Shown piece after piece: positions 2,368-6,291 of a stretch of DNA of 64,000 nt. The notes beneath the pieces are model-generated. The model was not told where the DNA came from. It saw only the letters and a program-made list of their open reading frames with translations, and ran no database searches. The DNA is from Escherichia coli (GTDB taxonomy: Bacteria > Pseudomonadota > Gammaproteobacteria > Enterobacterales > Enterobacteriaceae). The stretch is taken from the NCBI RefSeq assembly GCF_011045215.1, contig NZ_CP049201.1; one strand, given 5' to 3'. Within the stretch, counting starts at the first letter, position 1. Each line of letters begins with the position of its first letter. A program made the translations under genes and the position numbers.

Positions 2368-2496
2368 AAATCTCCAGAGATGTGTTCAGGAGTTAGAAAG
2401 ATTATTTCTTCTATTCTAGACAAATCCCCCTCTGATTGACAGCATCACTGACCAATCGCAAAGATTGCTAAGGCTGCTTATGGCAGGGAGATAAGG

Positions 2497-3621
2497 ATGG
2501 TCGATACAGAAATTTGGCTGCGTTTAATGAGTATCAGCAGCTTGTACGGCGATGATATGGTCCGTATAGCTCACTGGCTGGCAAGACAGTCGCATATTGA
2601 TGCGGTTGTATTGCAGCAAACAGGGCTTACATTGCGGCAGGCACAACGCTTTCTTTCATTTCCGCGGAAGAGTATCGAAAGCTCACTTTGTTGGTTGGAG
2701 CAACCCAACCATCATTTAATCCCTGCGGACAGCGAATTTTATCCTCCTCAACTTCTGGCGACGACAGATTACCCCGGCGCACTGTTTGTTGAAGGAGAAC
2801 TGCACGCGCTGCATTCATTTCAGCTTGCCGTAGTGGGGAGTCGGGCGCATTCATTGTATGGCGAGCGATGGGGACGATTATTTTGCGAAACTCTGGCGAA
2901 GCATGGAGTGACAATTACGAGTGGACTGGCGCGTGGAATCGATGGTGTAGCGCATAAAGCAGCCTTACAGGTAAATGGCGTCAGCATTGCTGTATTGGGG
3001 AATGGACTTAATACCATTCATCCCCGCCGCCATGCCCGACTGGCTACCAGTTTGCTTGAACATGGTGGGGCACTTGTCTCGGAATTTCCCCTCGATGTTC
3101 CACCCCTTGCTTACAATTTCCCACGAAGAAATCGCATTATCAGTGGTCTAAGTAAAGGTGTACTGGTGGTGGAAGCGGCTTTGCGCAGTGGTTCGTTGGT
3201 GACAGCACGTTGTGCGCTTGAGCAGGGGCGTGAAGTTTTTGCCTTGCCAGGACCAATAGGGAATCCGGGAAGCGAAGGGCCTCACTGGTTAATAAAACAA
3301 GGTGCGATTCTTGTGACGGAACCGGAAGAAATTCTGGAAAACTTGCAATTTGGATTGCACTGGTTGCCAGACGCCCCTGAAAATTCATTTTATTCACCAG
3401 ATCAGGAAGACGTGGCATTGCCATTTCCTGAGCTCCTGGCTAACGTAGGAGATGAGGTAACACCTGTTGACGTCGTCGCTGAACGTGCCGGCCAACCTGT
3501 GCCAGAGGTAGTTACTCAACTACTCGAACTGGAGTTAGCAGGATGGATCGCAGCTGTACCCGGCGGCTATGTCCGATTGAGGAGGGCATGCCATGTTCGA
3601 CGTACTAATGTATTTGTTTGA
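2497..3621 (+). CDS. dprA: DNA-processing protein DprA/Smf
   Basis: 374-aa ORF, divergent from def; DprA/Smf Rossmann-like domain recognisable in translation. Confidence 0.9.
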
Positions 3622-4066
3622 AACCTATATTCACACAGAAGCTGAGTTGCGTGTGGATCAAGACAAACTTGAACAGGATCTTACCGACGCAGGATTTGAT
3701 CGAGAAGATATCTACAATGCCCTGCTTTGGCTGGAAAAGCTTGCGGATTATCAGGAAGGACTGGCAGAACCGATGCAACTGGCCTCTGATCCACTCTCCA
3801 TGCGTATTTATACCCCTGAGGAGTGTGAAAGACTGGATGCCAGCTGTCGTGGTTTTCTGCTTTTCCTTGAGCAAATTCAGGTGCTTAACCTTGAAACCCG
3901 TGAAATGGTGATAGAGCGAGTGCTCGCGCTGGATACCGCAGAGTTCGACCTGGAAGACCTGAAATGGGTAATCCTGATGGTGTTGTTCAATATTCCGGGC
4001 TGCGAAAATGCGTACCAGCAAATGGAAGAATTACTCTTTGAAGTGAATGAAGGTATGCTGCATTAA
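3593..4066 (+). CDS. smg: Smg protein (DUF494)
   Basis: 157-aa [33 protein letters not shown]...; start overlaps dprA 3' end by 29 nt. Confidence 0.9.
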
Positions 4067-4094
4067 TCATTTCTTTAATTCAGCATAAGTTGTT

Positions 4095-4637
4095 ATGGCG
4101 AAATCAGCACTGTTCACGGTGCGTAATAATGAATCCTGCCCAAAATGCGGGGCTGAACTGGTTATTCGATCCGGGAAACACGGTCCGTTTCTTGGCTGCT
4201 CACAGTATCCGGCGTGTGACTACGTCCGTCCTCTGAAATCTTCAGCGGATGGACATATTGTCAAAGTTCTGGAGGGGCAGGTTTGCCCTGCATGTGGCGC
4301 AAATCTGGTATTACGCCAGGGACGCTTTGGTATGTTTATTGGTTGCAGTAACTACCCTGAATGCGAACATACCGAACTTATCGATAAACCGGACGAAACA
4401 GCAATTACATGTCCCCAATGCCGGACGGGCCATCTGGTCCAGCGCCGCTCCCGTTATGGCAAAACATTTCACTCCTGTGATCGCTACCCGGAGTGTCAAT
4501 TTGCCATTAACTTCAAACCCATAGCTGGAGAATGCCCTGAGTGTCATTATCCGCTACTCATCGAAAAGAAAACCGCGCAGGGTGTAAAACACTTTTGTGC
4601 CAGTAAACAATGTGGAAAGCCGGTTTCGGCGGAATAA
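4095..4637 (+). CDS. yrdD: Topoisomerase-I-C-terminal-like zinc-ribbon DNA-binding protein YrdD
   Basis: 180-aa ORF with three repeated C-x2-C ... C-x4-C zinc-ribbon units ([12 protein letters not shown]; [12 protein letters not shown]; CPQCR..CDRYPEC) plus a fourth CPEC. Confidence 0.85.
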
Positions 4638-4641
4638 TAAC

Positions 4642-5214
4642 GTGAATAATAACCTGCAAGGAGACGCTATCGCAGCTGCGATAGATGTCCTCAATGAAGA
4701 ACGTGTCATCGCCTATCCAACGGAAGCCGTTTTCGGCGTCGGGTGCGATCCTGATAGCGAAACAGCAGTGATGCGACTGTTGGAGTTAAAACAGCGTCCG
4801 GTTGATAAGGGGCTGATTTTAATCGCGGCAAATTACGAGCAGCTTAAACCCTATATTGATGACACCATGCTGACTGATGCGCAGCGTGAAACCATTTTTT
4901 CCCGCTGGCCAGGTCCTGTCACCTTTGTCTTTCCCGCGCCTGCGACAACACCGCGCTGGTTGACGGGCCGCTTTGATTCGCTTGCTGTACGAGTCACCGA
5001 CCATCCGTTGGTGGTTGCTTTGTGCCAAGCTTATGGTAAACCGCTGGTTTCTACCAGTGCCAACTTGAGTGGATTGCCACCTTGTCGAACAGTAGACGAA
5101 GTTCGCGCACAATTTGGCGCGGCGTTCCCGGTTGTGCCTGGTGAAACGGGGGGGCGTTTAAATCCTTCAGAAATCCGCGATGCCCTGACGGGTGAACTGT
5201 TTCGACAGGGGTAA
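4642..5214 (+). CDS. tsaC: L-threonylcarbamoyladenylate synthase TsaC (YrdC/RimN)
   Basis: GTG start at 4642 gives the 190-aa protein [38 protein letters not shown]... (YrdC/Sua5 fold); the ORF-track entry 4597..5214 is an upstream in-frame extension. Confidence 0.85.
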
Positions 5215-5218
5215 CATA

Positions 5219-6037
5219 ATGGAAACCTATGCTGTTTTTGGTAATCCGATAGCCCACAGCAAATCGCCATTCATTCATCAGCAATTTGCTCAGCAACTGA
5301 ATATTGAACATCCCTATGGGCGCGTGTTGGCACCCATCAATGATTTCATCAACACACTGAACGCTTTCTTTCGTGCTGGTGGTAAAGGTGCGAATGTGAC
5401 GGTGCCTTTTAAAGAAGAGGCTTTTGCCAGAGCGGATGAGCTTACTGAACGGGCAGCGTTGGCTGGTGCTGTTAATACCCTCATGCGGTTAGAAGATGGA
5501 CGCCTGCTGGGTGACAATACCGATGGTGTAGGCTTGTTAAGCGATCTGGAACGTCTGTCTTTTATCCGCCCTGGTTTACGTATTCTGCTTATCGGCGCTG
5601 GTGGAGCATCTCGCGGCGTACTACTGCCACTCCTTTCCCTGGACTGTGCGGTGACAATCACTAATCGGACGGTATCCCGCGCGGAAGAGTTGGCTAAATT
5701 GTTTGCGCACACTGGCAGTATTCAGGCGTTGGGTATGGACGAACTGGAAGGTCATGAGTTTGATCTCATTATTAATGCAACATCCAGTGGCATCAGTGGT
5801 GATATTCCGGCGATCCCGTCATCGCTCATTCATCCAGGCATTTATTGCTATGACATGTTCTATCAGAAAGGAAAAACTCCTTTTCTGGCATGGTGTGAGC
5901 AGCGAGGCTCAAAGCGTAATGCTGATGGTTTAGGAATGCTGGTGGCACAGGCGGCTCATGCCTTCCTTCTTTGGCATGGCGTTCTGCCTGATGTAGAACC
6001 GGTCATCAAACTATTGCAACAGGAGTTGTCAGCGTGA
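5219..6037 (+). CDS. aroE: Shikimate dehydrogenase
   Basis: Internal ATG at 5219 gives 272 aa [28 protein letters not shown]...; NADP-binding GAGGASRG motif present. Confidence 0.9.
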
Positions 6038-6291
6038 ATCAGGCCATCCAGTTTCCGGACAGGGAAGAGTGGGACGAGAATAAAAAATGTGTATGTTTTC
6101 CCGCTCTCGTGAATGGCATGCAACTGACATGTGCGATCTCTGGCGATAGCCTGGCGTATCGCTTTACTGGAGATACGCCAGAGCAGTGGTTAGCGAGTTT
6201 TCGTCAGCATCGCTGGGACCTGGAAGAAGAAGCGGAAAACTTAATTCAGGAACAAAGTGAAGATGATCAAGGTTGGGTCTGGTTACCCTGA
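6034..6291 (+). CDS. yrdB: DUF1488 family protein YrdB
   Basis: 85-aa [35 protein letters not shown]...; start overlaps aroE stop. Confidence 0.8.

What the first reader, a model, noticed from the sequence alone, without database searches (positions are those of the whole stretch)
4095..4637. YrdD: free-standing protein built from topoisomerase-I-like zinc-ribbon repeats, in a cluster with dprA
The translation shows three consecutive C-x2-C ... C-x4-C modules plus a fourth CPEC, resembling the C-terminal zinc ribbons of topoisomerase I without any catalytic domain. It sits in the dprA - smg - yrdD - tsaC cluster, next to the DNA-processing protein DprA in an organism that is not naturally transformable under laboratory conditions. 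The cluster may form a functional DNA-handling unit.
Basis: partly seen in the sequence, partly recalled or inferred. Interest (0 to 1): 0.25.

Follow-up and report, generated by a model that had tools for sequence, protein, structure and literature searches.

The report
YrdD: leftover topoisomerase I DNA-binding tail
This is the known E. coli gene yrdD, a small protein of four zinc-ribbon modules that binds single-stranded DNA. It lies exactly where other bacteria keep the tail end of their topoisomerase I gene, so it is most likely a conserved leftover of that gene. The finding is real but already known.

Summary
The ORF at 4095-4637 is E. coli yrdD. It is present in 5425 of 5426 complete E. 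coli genomes and is annotated "DNA topoisomerase family protein".

There are four complete 4-Cys zinc ribbons, not three plus a fragment, and the second Cys pair is CX5C in ribbons 1-3 and CX4C in ribbon 4. There is no Toprim or catalytic domain.

Zn-dependent ssDNA binding has already been published (Cheng et al. 2014, as cited in PMC4678816), and the dprA-smg-yrdD-tsaC-aroE-yrdB neighbourhood is already noted in the literature.

What I add is positional. In Neisseria and several gammaproteobacterial contigs, the slot after dprA(-smg) and before tsaC holds a full-length topA. Its last ~165 residues align ribbon by ribbon with YrdD at 42-48% identity. E. coli's own TopA tail aligns at only 26%.

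YrdD is therefore best read as the retained C-terminal ssDNA-binding domain of an ancestral topA at this locus. It is kept under strong purifying selection (dN/dS about 0.05), and the base-stacking aromatic residues of ribbons 1-3 are conserved.

A joint function with DprA is plausible but untested. Novelty: already known. Interest: low.

The parts
4095..4637 (+). yrdD coding sequence: 180 aa, 19.8 kDa, pI 8.6, net charge +6
   Evidence: ORF and translation. Present at 95-100% identity in 5425 of 5426 complete E. coli genomes and annotated yrdD. PF01396 E=1.3e-54.
4137..4217 (+). Zinc ribbon 1 (C15,C18,C35,C41), with beta3 aromatic F32
   Evidence: Motif. Cys invariant or near-invariant; F32 kept in 33 of 34 homologues. 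F32 is equivalent to F616 of E. coli TopA D5, which stacks on ssDNA (PMC4678816).
4284..4364 (+). Zinc ribbon 2 (C64,C67,C84,C90), with R77-F78 and F81
   Evidence: Best Pfam stretch, residues 62-98. R77/F78/F81 line up with R724/F725/Y728 of TopA D7, the ssDNA contacts in 4RUL. Conservation: basic 31/34, aromatic 34/34, F 33/34.
4410..4496 (+). Zinc ribbon 3 (C106,C109,C128,C134), with a longer knuckle spacing (x18) and F125
   Evidence: Motif. The same x18 spacing and the RRSRxGxxFxSC signature occur in ribbon 3 of the 4-ribbon TopAs P0168, P0183 and P0284. F125 is kept in 33 of 34.
4533..4613 (+). Zinc ribbon 4 (C147,C150,C168,C173), with a CX4C second knuckle and no conserved beta3 aromatic
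   Evidence: Motif. All four Cys are invariant in 34 homologues. AF2 pLDDT is above 90 over residues 140-170. The aromatic position is variable. It is collinear with ribbon 4 of the syntenic TopAs.
2497..3621 (+). dprA (smf), first gene of the cluster
   Evidence: NCBIfam PRK10736 DprA E=5e-212; Pfam DNA_processg_A, SAM_SMF and DprA_WH.
3593..4066 (+). smg (DUF494). It overlaps the dprA 3' end by 29 nt and ends 28 nt before yrdD.
   Evidence: PF04361 E=3e-59; junctions. It is the most conserved gene of the cluster, dN/dS about 0.02.
4642..5214 (+). tsaC (yrdC). Its GTG start lies 4 nt after the yrdD stop.
   Evidence: NCBIfam PRK10634 TsaC E=2e-84; junction sequence. It is the most persistent neighbour of yrdD and topA across taxa.
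5219..6291 (+). aroE (5219-6037) and yrdB (6034-6291), the tail of the same tightly packed gene string
   Evidence: ORFs and junctions; annotation. No convincing terminator lies between dprA and yrdB.
2368..2496 (+). def-dprA intergenic region, the presumed promoter region for the string. No sigma-70-like or CRP-S-like site was detected on the + strand.
   Evidence: Sequence; promoter scan. The TGCGA-N6-TCGCA scan at up to 2 mismatches gives no hit here and no enrichment in the window.

Best explanation
The ORF is E. coli yrdD. It encodes a basic, flexible string of four Zn(Cys)4 ribbons of the topoisomerase-I C-terminal type and has no strand-cleaving domain, so it cannot be a topoisomerase.

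Most likely mechanism:
- Each folded ribbon needs its metal for stability.
- Ribbons 1-3 present a conserved aromatic residue on strand beta3, plus a basic/aromatic pair in the beta2-beta3 turn of ribbon 2.
- These residues stack on the bases of single-stranded DNA regardless of sequence, as domains D5 and D7 of E. coli topoisomerase I do.
- The protein therefore coats or holds unwound or single-stranded DNA.
- Ribbon 4 lacks the conserved aromatic. Like TopA D6, it may serve protein contacts instead.

Most likely origin:
- yrdD is the surviving 3' part (the C-terminal domain) of an ancestral topA that sat in the ancient dprA-(smg)-topA-(tsaC) cluster.
- In the lineage leading to Enterobacterales, Vibrionales, Aeromonadales, Alteromonadales and Pasteurellales, the housekeeping enzyme became the 865-aa E. 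coli-type TopA encoded elsewhere.
- The locus copy then lost its catalytic part.
- The remaining tail has been kept under strong purifying selection, which implies a useful role of its own that can be separated from catalysis.

Status of each step:
- Shown here: domain content, collinearity, synteny, conservation.
- Shown by others: Zn/Fe binding, Zn-dependent ssDNA binding, supercoiling-responsive transcription.
- Inferred: the stacking mechanism, co-transcription in E. coli, the direction and manner of the gene loss, and the cellular role.
For: Identity and domain content:
- Annotated yrdD in E. coli genomes.
- Four PF01396-type ribbons and nothing else.

Fold:
- The AF2 model has mean pLDDT 82, is all-beta with four modules, and has pTM 0.48, which fits beads on a string.
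- The best Foldseek PDB matches are 4rul_A (full-length E. coli TopA with ssDNA, E=8.9e-5) and the RNAP-TopoI complexes 9gdh and 9gda.

ssDNA-binding residues:
- F32, F81 and F125 are each kept in 33 of 34 homologues. R77 is basic in 31 of 34 and F78 aromatic in 34 of 34.
- They correspond to F616, Y728, R724 and F725, which contact ssDNA in 4RUL.

Published function:
- Zn(II)-dependent ssDNA binding and Fe/Zn competition (Cheng et al. 2014, as cited in PMC4678816 and PMC6495748).

Expression:
- Peptides were detected by MS (PMC6857472).
- Transcription is repressed by relaxation and raised by hypernegative supercoiling (PMC545778; PMC8301835).

Origin, by sequence:
- YrdD residues 12-174 align in one collinear stretch, ribbon 1-4 to ribbon 1-4, with the last ~165 aa of 756-773-aa TopAs at 160-171 bits.
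- E. coli's own TopA gives only ~42 bits, out of register. Identity is 42-48% against 26%.

Origin, by position:
- Those TopAs occupy the same slot: dprA-smg-topA (L006; N. gonorrhoeae L090), dprA-topA (Coxiellaceae L003) and dprA-topA-tsaC (L004).
- dprA-smg-yrdD-tsaC is found in E. coli, 79 of 80 Enterobacterales, Aeromonas, Pseudoalteromonas and Corallincola. In Vibrio (and L007) the same order holds but purEK genes lie between yrdD and tsaC.
- N. gonorrhoeae has a single TopA, the syntenic one. Aeromonas, Proteus and E. coli have an E. coli-type TopA megabases away from yrdD.
- One contig shows topA (with a different, cysteine-less tail) followed by a separate 4-ribbon ORF and then tsaC (L093).

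Selection:
- dN/dS is 0.04-0.08 for yrdD, about 0.07 for tsaC and 0.14-0.30 for dprA.
Against: - The phylogeny is weak. NJ bootstrap support is only 26% for a single YrdD clade and 50% for YrdD plus syntenic TopA tails. YrdD is only slightly closer to the syntenic TopA tails (42-48%) than to other 4-ribbon TopA tails (36-45%). The relic argument therefore rests mainly on synteny.
- No genome carrying both a full-length syntenic 4-ribbon TopA and an E. coli-type TopA (the expected intermediate) was found or could be searched for.
- The contexts outside Enterobacterales are about a dozen loci, several of them from unnamed metagenome contigs.
- Co-transcription in E. coli was inferred only from gene spacing and from the lack of terminator-like sites.
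- I could not read the primary paper on ssDNA binding.
- No phenotype of a yrdD mutant is known to me from the sources searched.
- ssDNA stacking by YrdD residues is inferred by homology, not shown.
Confidence: 0.7

Rival explanations
1. DprA, Smg and YrdD form one DNA-processing unit. YrdD would hold incoming or gapped single-stranded DNA while DprA loads RecA, during the cryptic competence or DNA-uptake programme of E. coli.
For: - dprA-smg-(topA or yrdD) adjacency is ancient and was shown to be co-transcribed in Neisseria.
- Gene junctions in the window are tight: a 29-nt overlap and a 28-nt gap.
- Both DprA and YrdD bind ssDNA.
- In one reduced-genome Pantoea symbiont, dprA and yrdD are both decayed while smg, tsaC and aroE are intact.
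- Proteus keeps dprA directly next to yrdD without smg.
Against: - No interaction or shared phenotype is reported in the sources read.
- According, topA and smg are not recognised members of competence regulons.
- Mergibacter (Pasteurellaceae, a family with naturally competent members) has yrdD away from dprA and next to tsaC-aroE.
- dprA evolves 2-4 times faster than yrdD, which is unusual for obligate partners.
- No CRP-S-like site was found upstream of dprA in the window.
- The joint decay in the symbiont is a single case.
Confidence: 0.2
2. YrdD acts in supercoiling or transcription control as a detached TopA tail. It would bind the unpaired strand behind RNA polymerase or in R-loop-prone, hypernegatively supercoiled DNA. 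It might also dock on RNA polymerase or on a type IA topoisomerase core (TopA or Topo III), helping or competing with topoisomerase I.
For: - yrdD transcription falls on relaxation and rises with hypernegative supercoiling, the behaviour expected of a relaxing-side factor.
[quoted passage not shown] They are needed for processive relaxation.
- The closest structural matches include RNAP-TopoI complexes.
- Ribbon 4 lacks the DNA-stacking aromatic, as does TopA D6, which contacts the catalytic core.
Against: - No direct data exist.
- The E. coli TopA tail is only 26% identical to YrdD, so RNAP or core contacts need not be conserved.
- The RNAP-TopoI interface is weak and mostly electrostatic, and the authors consider the way the C-terminal domain is engaged likely specific to E. 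coli because the TopoI C-terminal domain is not conserved between species.
- PMC8301835 lists yrdD as a 'topoisomerase gene', which is an annotation artefact.
Confidence: 0.2
3. YrdD is an RNA- or tRNA-binding helper linked to TsaC, which makes threonylcarbamoyl-AMP for tRNA t6A. Its ribbons would bind single-stranded RNA rather than DNA.
For: - tsaC is the most constant neighbour. It follows yrdD directly or closely in E. coli (4-nt gap), Mergibacter (overlapping), Pseudoalteromonas, Corallincola, Proteus and L093, and it follows full-length topA in L004.
- Base stacking by aromatic residues is not specific for DNA sugar (inference).
Against: - The only reported binding activity is to ssDNA.
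- TsaC works without YrdD in many bacteria that lack yrdD (established knowledge of the t6A pathway).
- The topA-tsaC adjacency in L004 suggests the linkage is inherited gene order, not a YrdD-specific partnership.
Confidence: 0.06
4. yrdD is a functionless leftover: a decaying gene fragment that is merely still open in E. coli.
For: - It looks like a truncated gene, a tail without an enzyme.
- It has a weak ribosome-binding region.
- It was lost in one symbiont.
Against: - It is intact in 5425 of 5426 E. coli genomes and in 79 of 80 Enterobacterales species.
- All 16 Cys are conserved from E. coli to Vibrio, Pseudoalteromonas and Pasteurellaceae.
- dN/dS is about 0.05, as low as for the essential tsaC.
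- The protein is detected by mass spectrometry.
Confidence: 0.02

Closest known systems
YrdD of E. coli K-12 (b3283), as described by Cheng et al. 2014 (Biometals 27:229; cited in PMC4678816 and PMC6495748)
   Same: It is the same gene: 99-100% identity to E. coli genomes. Published properties are four predicted 4-Cys ribbons, Zn and Fe binding, and Zn-dependent ssDNA binding.
   Different: Nothing differs in the sequence. The published work, as far as I could read it second-hand, does not address its origin at the dprA-smg-topA locus.
C-terminal domain of 4-ribbon bacterial topoisomerase I encoded in dprA-(smg)-topA clusters (Neisseria TopA; Coxiellaceae and gammaproteobacterial MAG TopAs P0168, P0183, P0284)
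   Same: Same number and order of ribbons, the same ribbon-specific spacings, 42-48% identity end to end, and the same genomic slot.
   Different: YrdD starts at the domain boundary, with residue ~12 matching TopA residue ~590. It lacks Toprim and the catalytic Tyr domain, so it is a separate 20-kDa protein.
E. coli topoisomerase I C-terminal domains D5-D9 (PDB 4RUL; RNAP-TopoI complexes 9GDA-9GDH)
   Same: Same fold type, a 4-stranded zinc ribbon. The same beta3 aromatic and R-F turn residues are used for ssDNA stacking. These are the top structural and sequence matches in the PDB.
   Different: Identity is only about 26% and the alignment is out of register. TopA has three Zn ribbons plus two cysteine-less ribbon-like domains (PF08272, restricted to Gammaproteobacteria), whereas YrdD has four true Zn ribbons.
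Free-standing 4-ribbon ORF next to a topA with a cysteine-less Toprim_C_rpt tail (L093, SUP05/Thioglobus-like contig)
   Same: A separate 200-aa four-ribbon protein lies directly upstream of tsaC and directly downstream of topA.
   Different: It groups with TopA tails (87% bootstrap) and never with the YrdD clade (0%). It probably represents an independent split. The evidence is a single 4-kb metagenome contig.
Zinc ribbons of RNA polymerase subunit Rpb9 and the TFIIS/TFIIB family
   Same: Generic zinc-ribbon fold; weak Foldseek and Pfam echoes.
   Different: Scores fall below the family thresholds (for example PF08271, 23.6 bits against a cut-off of 29). There is no evidence of relatedness beyond the fold.

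Membership tests
Topoisomerase-I-type C4 zinc ribbon (Pfam PF01396 Zn_ribbon_Top1 / Topo_C_ZnRpt) | Profile match above the curated threshold | tested here: met
   182.1 bits against a cut-off of 32, E=1.3e-54, with three stretches significant on their own. The fourth ribbon is recognised by collinear alignment to ribbon 4 of TopAs.
Topoisomerase-I-type C4 zinc ribbon (Pfam PF01396 Zn_ribbon_Top1 / Topo_C_ZnRpt) | Four cysteines in two knuckles (CxxC ... CxnC) per module | tested here: met
   Four modules and 16 Cys. All are invariant or at least 90% conserved in 34 homologues.
Topoisomerase-I-type C4 zinc ribbon (Pfam PF01396 Zn_ribbon_Top1 / Topo_C_ZnRpt) | Four-stranded antiparallel beta-sheet ribbon fold | tested here: met
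   The AF2 model is all-beta with mean pLDDT 82 and paired strands in each module. The top Foldseek hit is 4rul_A. This rests on a prediction, not an experimental structure.
Topoisomerase-I-type C4 zinc ribbon (Pfam PF01396 Zn_ribbon_Top1 / Topo_C_ZnRpt) | Aromatic residue on beta3 that stacks on ssDNA bases | tested here: met
   F32, F81 and F125 are each kept in 33 of 34 homologues, which meets the feature for ribbons 1-3. The ribbon 4 position is not conserved.
Topoisomerase-I-type C4 zinc ribbon (Pfam PF01396 Zn_ribbon_Top1 / Topo_C_ZnRpt) | Zn(II) occupancy and ssDNA binding | not testable with these tools
   Reported by Cheng et al. 2014, as cited. The primary paper is not held.
Type IA DNA topoisomerase (TopA), the name carried by many database annotations of this protein | Toprim domain (PF01751) | tested here: not met
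   No hit in Pfam or NCBIfam. The TopA equivalog models score 40-96 bits against cut-offs of 456-930, and only over their C-terminal ends.
Type IA DNA topoisomerase (TopA), the name carried by many database annotations of this protein | Topoisom_bac domain (PF01131) with the catalytic tyrosine | tested here: not met
   No hit. The protein begins at the position equivalent to TopA residue ~580-590, after the catalytic core.
YrdD orthologous group (free-standing 4-ribbon proteins of Enterobacterales, Vibrionales, Aeromonadales, Alteromonadales and Pasteurellales) | About 175-200 aa, four ribbons, no other domain, located next to tsaC and usually after dprA-smg | tested here: met
   Window. 79 of 80 Enterobacterales. 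Vibrio, L007, Pseudoalteromonas, Corallincola, Aeromonas, Proteus and Mergibacter.
Sxy/CRP-S competence regulon | CRP-S site (TGCGA-N6-TCGCA-like) in the promoter region of the transcription unit | tested here: inconclusive
   No match with up to 2 mismatches lies in 2368-2496, and the window as a whole shows no enrichment: 41 matches against 41.4 expected. The published site lists were not available.

The most novel reading that the evidence does not exclude
YrdD is not just an ssDNA binder. It would be a detachable topoisomerase tail that still works in trans, preserving an ancestral, catalysis-independent job of the TopA C-terminal domain that the remodelled E. coli-type TopA gave up. Candidate jobs are handing ssDNA to, or recruiting, a partner encoded in the same old cluster (DprA or Smg), or docking on a type IA core (TopA or Topo III) or on RNA polymerase when DNA becomes hypernegatively supercoiled. 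The L093 contig suggests that such splits of topA into core and tail genes have happened more than once.
Probability: 0.15. Interest if true: 0.5.

Novelty: already known. Interest (0 to 1): 0.2.

Why it matters
The finding as stated does not change anything. yrdD is a named E. coli gene with published metal-binding and ssDNA-binding data, and its neighbourhood is already used in comparative work.

The positional and collinear match to the 3' end of topA in the old dprA-(smg)-topA-(tsaC) cluster adds three modest points:
- It explains why a topoisomerase tail sits beside dprA in E. coli.
- It shows that database names such as "type I DNA topoisomerase" for this protein are wrong.
- It gives a natural case of a topoisomerase C-terminal domain kept under selection without its enzyme, which argues that the tail has a role of its own.

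If that role were found, through links to DprA or Smg, R-loops, RNA polymerase or Topo III, it would inform how type IA topoisomerase tails work in general. That includes the multi-ribbon tails of eukaryotic TOP3 enzymes.

Tried and rejected
All were Enterobacterales. This was useful for conservation but not for diversity. I obtained diversity from the look-up of encoding contigs and from whole chromosomes mislabelled as plasmids in PLSDB.
2. The plasmid search for YrdD found no real plasmid-borne family. The good hits are chromosomes or chromosome fragments filed as plasmids.
3. Proteins of 280-620 aa with four ribbons, checked as possible half-decayed intermediates, are mostly truncated gene calls of full-length topA on short contigs. 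P0151 is a frameshifted or fragmentary topA on a 1-kb contig, not a free-standing protein.
4. The trees are unreliable. The first NJ tree looked clean, but bootstrapping shows weak support for the key nodes, so I do not rest the origin claim on the tree.
5. The promoter and terminator scan and the CRP-S pattern scan gave nothing above chance. The terminator-like hairpin inside yrdD (4315-4331) is one of 6 found against 5.7 expected, and I treat it as chance.
6. Three papers could not be obtained: the full text of Cheng et al. 2014, Sinha et al. 2009 on the E. coli Sxy regulon, and the supplement of Cameron and Redfield 2006.
7. A Biopython bootstrap run timed out. I replaced it with a numpy implementation.
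Full report
**What is at the coordinates.** The window is E. coli chromosome. The stretch 3500-5300 is found at 95-100% identity in 5425 of 5426 complete E. coli genomes, where it is annotated dprA, smg, yrdD ("DNA topoisomerase family protein"), tsaC and aroE.

The ORF 4095-4637 (+) encodes 180 aa. It has 16 cysteines, all arranged in four complete modules:
- C15xxC18-x16-C35x5C41
- C64xxC67-x16-C84x5C90
- C106xxC109-x18-C128x5C134
- C147xxC150-x17-C168x4C173

The second knuckle is CX5C in modules 1-3, and the fourth module is a whole ribbon rather than a lone CPEC.

Pfam gives PF01396 (Zn_ribbon_Top1) at E=1.3e-54 and finds no Toprim or Topoisom_bac domain. NCBIfam TopA models match only through their C-terminal ends and far below their cut-offs. 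The only solved structures that match by sequence are E. coli topoisomerase I entries (4RUL, 9GDA and related), through domains D5-D7.

I built an alignment of 34 homologues. AlphaFold2 then gives an all-beta, four-module model with mean pLDDT 82 and pTM 0.48, the pattern expected for well-folded beads on flexible linkers.

Foldseek against the PDB returns full-length E. coli TopA with ssDNA (4rul_A, E=8.9e-5) and the RNAP-TopoI cryo-EM complexes as the only matches below 1e-3. Generic zinc-ribbon proteins such as Rpb9 follow at non-significant scores. The zinc-ribbon prediction is therefore met.

**What is already known.**
- YrdD has been purified. It binds zinc and iron, and its zinc form binds ssDNA (Cheng et al. 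2014, as summarised in PMC4678816, and PMC6495748). I could not read the primary paper.
- yrdD transcription is repressed by chromosome relaxation (PMC545778) and raised under hypernegative supercoiling (PMC8301835).
- The protein has been seen by mass spectrometry (PMC6857472).
- The tsaC-dprA-smg-yrdD-aroE-yrdB neighbourhood is used as a marker in a recent TsaC/YciO study (bioRxiv 2024.07.01.601547).

The finding is therefore a known, partly characterised gene.

**Likely mechanism.** In the 4RUL structure, the TopA ribbons bind ssDNA mainly by stacking bases on an aromatic residue of strand beta3 (F616 in D5, Y728 in D7). In D7, R724 and F725 in the preceding turn help. D6 lacks the aromatic and binds the catalytic core instead of DNA.

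YrdD compares with this as follows:
- It has the equivalent residues in ribbons 1-3: F32, R77-F78...F81 (in register with R724-F725...Y728 in the alignment) and F125.
- Across 34 homologues, from Enterobacterales to Vibrio, Pseudoalteromonas, Pasteurellaceae and four TopA tails, these aromatic residues are kept in 33 of 34 sequences. The R77 position is basic in 31 of 34 and the F78 position aromatic in 34 of 34.
- The ribbon 4 position is variable.
- The protein is basic, with pI 8.6 and net charge +6.

I infer sequence-independent ssDNA binding by ribbons 1-3. Ribbon 4 may be free for protein contacts. This fits the published binding data but was not tested here.

**Surroundings.** dprA (2497-3621) overlaps smg (3593-4066) by 29 nt. 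yrdD starts 28 nt after smg. tsaC (GTG at 4642) starts 4 nt after yrdD. aroE and yrdB follow with 4-nt spacing or overlap.

The simple scans found no promoter-like site on the + strand inside the string, and terminator-like hairpins were no more frequent than chance. A six-gene operon is therefore likely but is inferred, not shown. I found no CRP-S-like site upstream of dprA, so a competence-type regulation of the string is not supported by this window.

**Where the evidence led: yrdD sits in the place of topA.** Hovland et al. showed that N. meningitidis co-transcribes dprA-smg-topA and that dprA and topA are neighbours in 14 of 24 phyla (PMC5817196).

An exhaustive HMMER search of 1.8 billion cluster representatives found two kinds of close relatives. 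One is free-standing proteins of 175-200 aa. The other is full-length TopAs of 756-773 aa whose last ~165 residues align to YrdD residues 12-174 in one stretch.

Direct comparison shows ribbon 1-4 to ribbon 1-4 collinearity at 160-171 bits. Ribbon-specific traits are shared: the x18 spacing and the RRSRxGxxFxSC signature of ribbon 3, and the CX4C knuckle of ribbon 4. E. coli's own TopA tail gives only ~42 bits in shifted registers. Identity is 42-48% against 26%.

The genomic contexts of those TopAs and of the YrdD homologues are:

| Arrangement | Where seen |
|---|---|
| dprA-smg-topA | L006; N. gonorrhoeae L090 |
| dprA-topA | Coxiellaceae MAG L003 |
| dprA-topA-tsaC | gammaproteobacterial MAG L004 |
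| dprA-smg-yrdD-tsaC | E. coli; 79 of 80 Enterobacterales species; Aeromonas; Pseudoalteromonas; Corallincola |
| dprA-smg-yrdD-(purEK genes)-tsaC | Vibrio (purK and purE, inverted); L007 (purE only) |
| dprA-yrdD-tsaC (no smg) | Proteus |
| yrdD-tsaC-aroE, away from dprA | Mergibacter |

In complete chromosomes, N. gonorrhoeae has only the syntenic TopA. Aeromonas, Proteus and E. coli have an E. coli-type 865-aa TopA far from the locus. The E. coli-type tail, with its cysteine-less PF08272 domains, is confined to Gammaproteobacteria (PMC9369019).

The simplest reading is that the locus originally held a full-length 4-ribbon topA. After a second, remodelled topA took over elsewhere, only the 3' tail survived, as yrdD.

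One metagenome contig (L093) shows a related situation. A topA with a different, cysteine-less Toprim_C_rpt and lysine-rich tail is followed by a separate 200-aa four-ribbon ORF and then tsaC. Its nearest named relatives are SUP05/Thioglobus-like Gammaproteobacteria.

**Limits of the origin claim.**
- A bootstrapped NJ tree supports the group of syntenic TopA tails plus the L093 ORF (87%). Support is only 26% for a single YrdD clade and 50% for YrdD plus the syntenic tails.
- YrdD is only a little closer to syntenic TopA tails than to other 4-ribbon TopA tails.
- The non-enterobacterial contexts number about a dozen.

I rate the relic origin at about 0.7.

**YrdD is not a dead remnant.**
- yrdD is intact across E. 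coli and Enterobacterales.
- All 16 Cys are conserved across orders.
- dN/dS against Salmonella, Citrobacter, Klebsiella and Pantoea is 0.04-0.08. This is as low as for the essential tsaC (about 0.07) and lower than for dprA (0.14-0.30). dS is near saturation, so these values are rough.
- The one loss seen is in a reduced-genome Pantoea symbiont of Nezara viridula. There yrdD and dprA are both decayed while smg, tsaC and aroE remain.

**Verdict on the interpretation.** "Topoisomerase-like zinc ribbons without a catalytic domain" is correct. "A functional DNA-handling unit with DprA" is possible and is consistent with the age of the linkage and with the joint decay in one symbiont.

It is nevertheless untested. 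It is not required by the data, because the linkage can be inherited gene order. It is weakened by Mergibacter, where yrdD keeps tsaC but not dprA as its neighbour.

Two other roles are at least as plausible: a supercoiling- or transcription-linked role as a TopA tail acting in trans, or simple ssDNA protection.

**Scores.** The finding is already known and I rate its interest low (0.2). The most novel reading still open is that YrdD preserves an ancestral, catalysis-independent function of the TopA tail and works in trans with DprA or Smg, a type IA core, or RNA polymerase. I give this about 0.15 probability and moderate interest if true.

Noticed in passing
L083:4800-7010 (Pantoea sp. Nvir, symbiont of Nezara viridula): dprA has an internal deletion. 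yrdD is reduced to an N-terminal remnant (MSKSALFTLRKQAICP) followed by frameshifts and stops. smg, tsaC and aroE are intact. This is the only one of 80 Enterobacterales loci without yrdD.
   Followed up: partly
L093:3-1497 (4-kb metagenome contig, SUP05/Thioglobus-like): The 3' end of a topA with cysteine-less Toprim_C_rpt repeats and a lysine-rich tail is followed, after a 97-nt gap, by a separate 200-aa four-zinc-ribbon ORF and then tsaC. It looks like a tail replacement that left the old zinc-ribbon tail as its own gene, independently of the E. coli YrdD lineage.
   Followed up: partly
window 3593-4066 (smg): Smg (DUF494, function unknown) is the most conserved gene of the string, with dN/dS about 0.02 and 97% identity to Salmonella. 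Yet it is absent between dprA and yrdD in Proteus mirabilis (L095) and between dprA and topA in Coxiellaceae (L003). In L094 it precedes topA without dprA.
   Followed up: partly
PLSDB records NZ_CP119142.1, NZ_AP026896.1, NZ_OL790811.1, NZ_CP134663.1 and others: Several records in the plasmid collection are whole chromosomes (2-5 Mb) of N. gonorrhoeae, Aeromonas caviae, Proteus mirabilis and E. coli filed as plasmids. They were useful here as named complete genomes, but they are a trap for plasmid statistics.
   Followed up: no
window 4095-4637 and database names of homologues: Many source annotations call this 180-aa protein 'type I DNA topoisomerase' or 'DNA topoisomerase 1', although it has no catalytic domain. 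One review lists yrdD among 'topoisomerase genes' (PMC8301835).
   Followed up: yes
L094:4959-7771 (GCA_038136475.1): After smg, topA is called as two ORFs: 490 aa (Toprim + Topoisom_bac) and 256 aa (Toprim_C_rpt). This could be a real split or an assembly frameshift. It was not resolved.
   Followed up: no
window 2497-3621 (dprA): dprA evolves 2-4 times faster than its neighbours (74% identity to Salmonella against 87-97% for smg, yrdD, tsaC and aroE). This suggests relaxed constraint on the competence gene in enterics.
   Followed up: no
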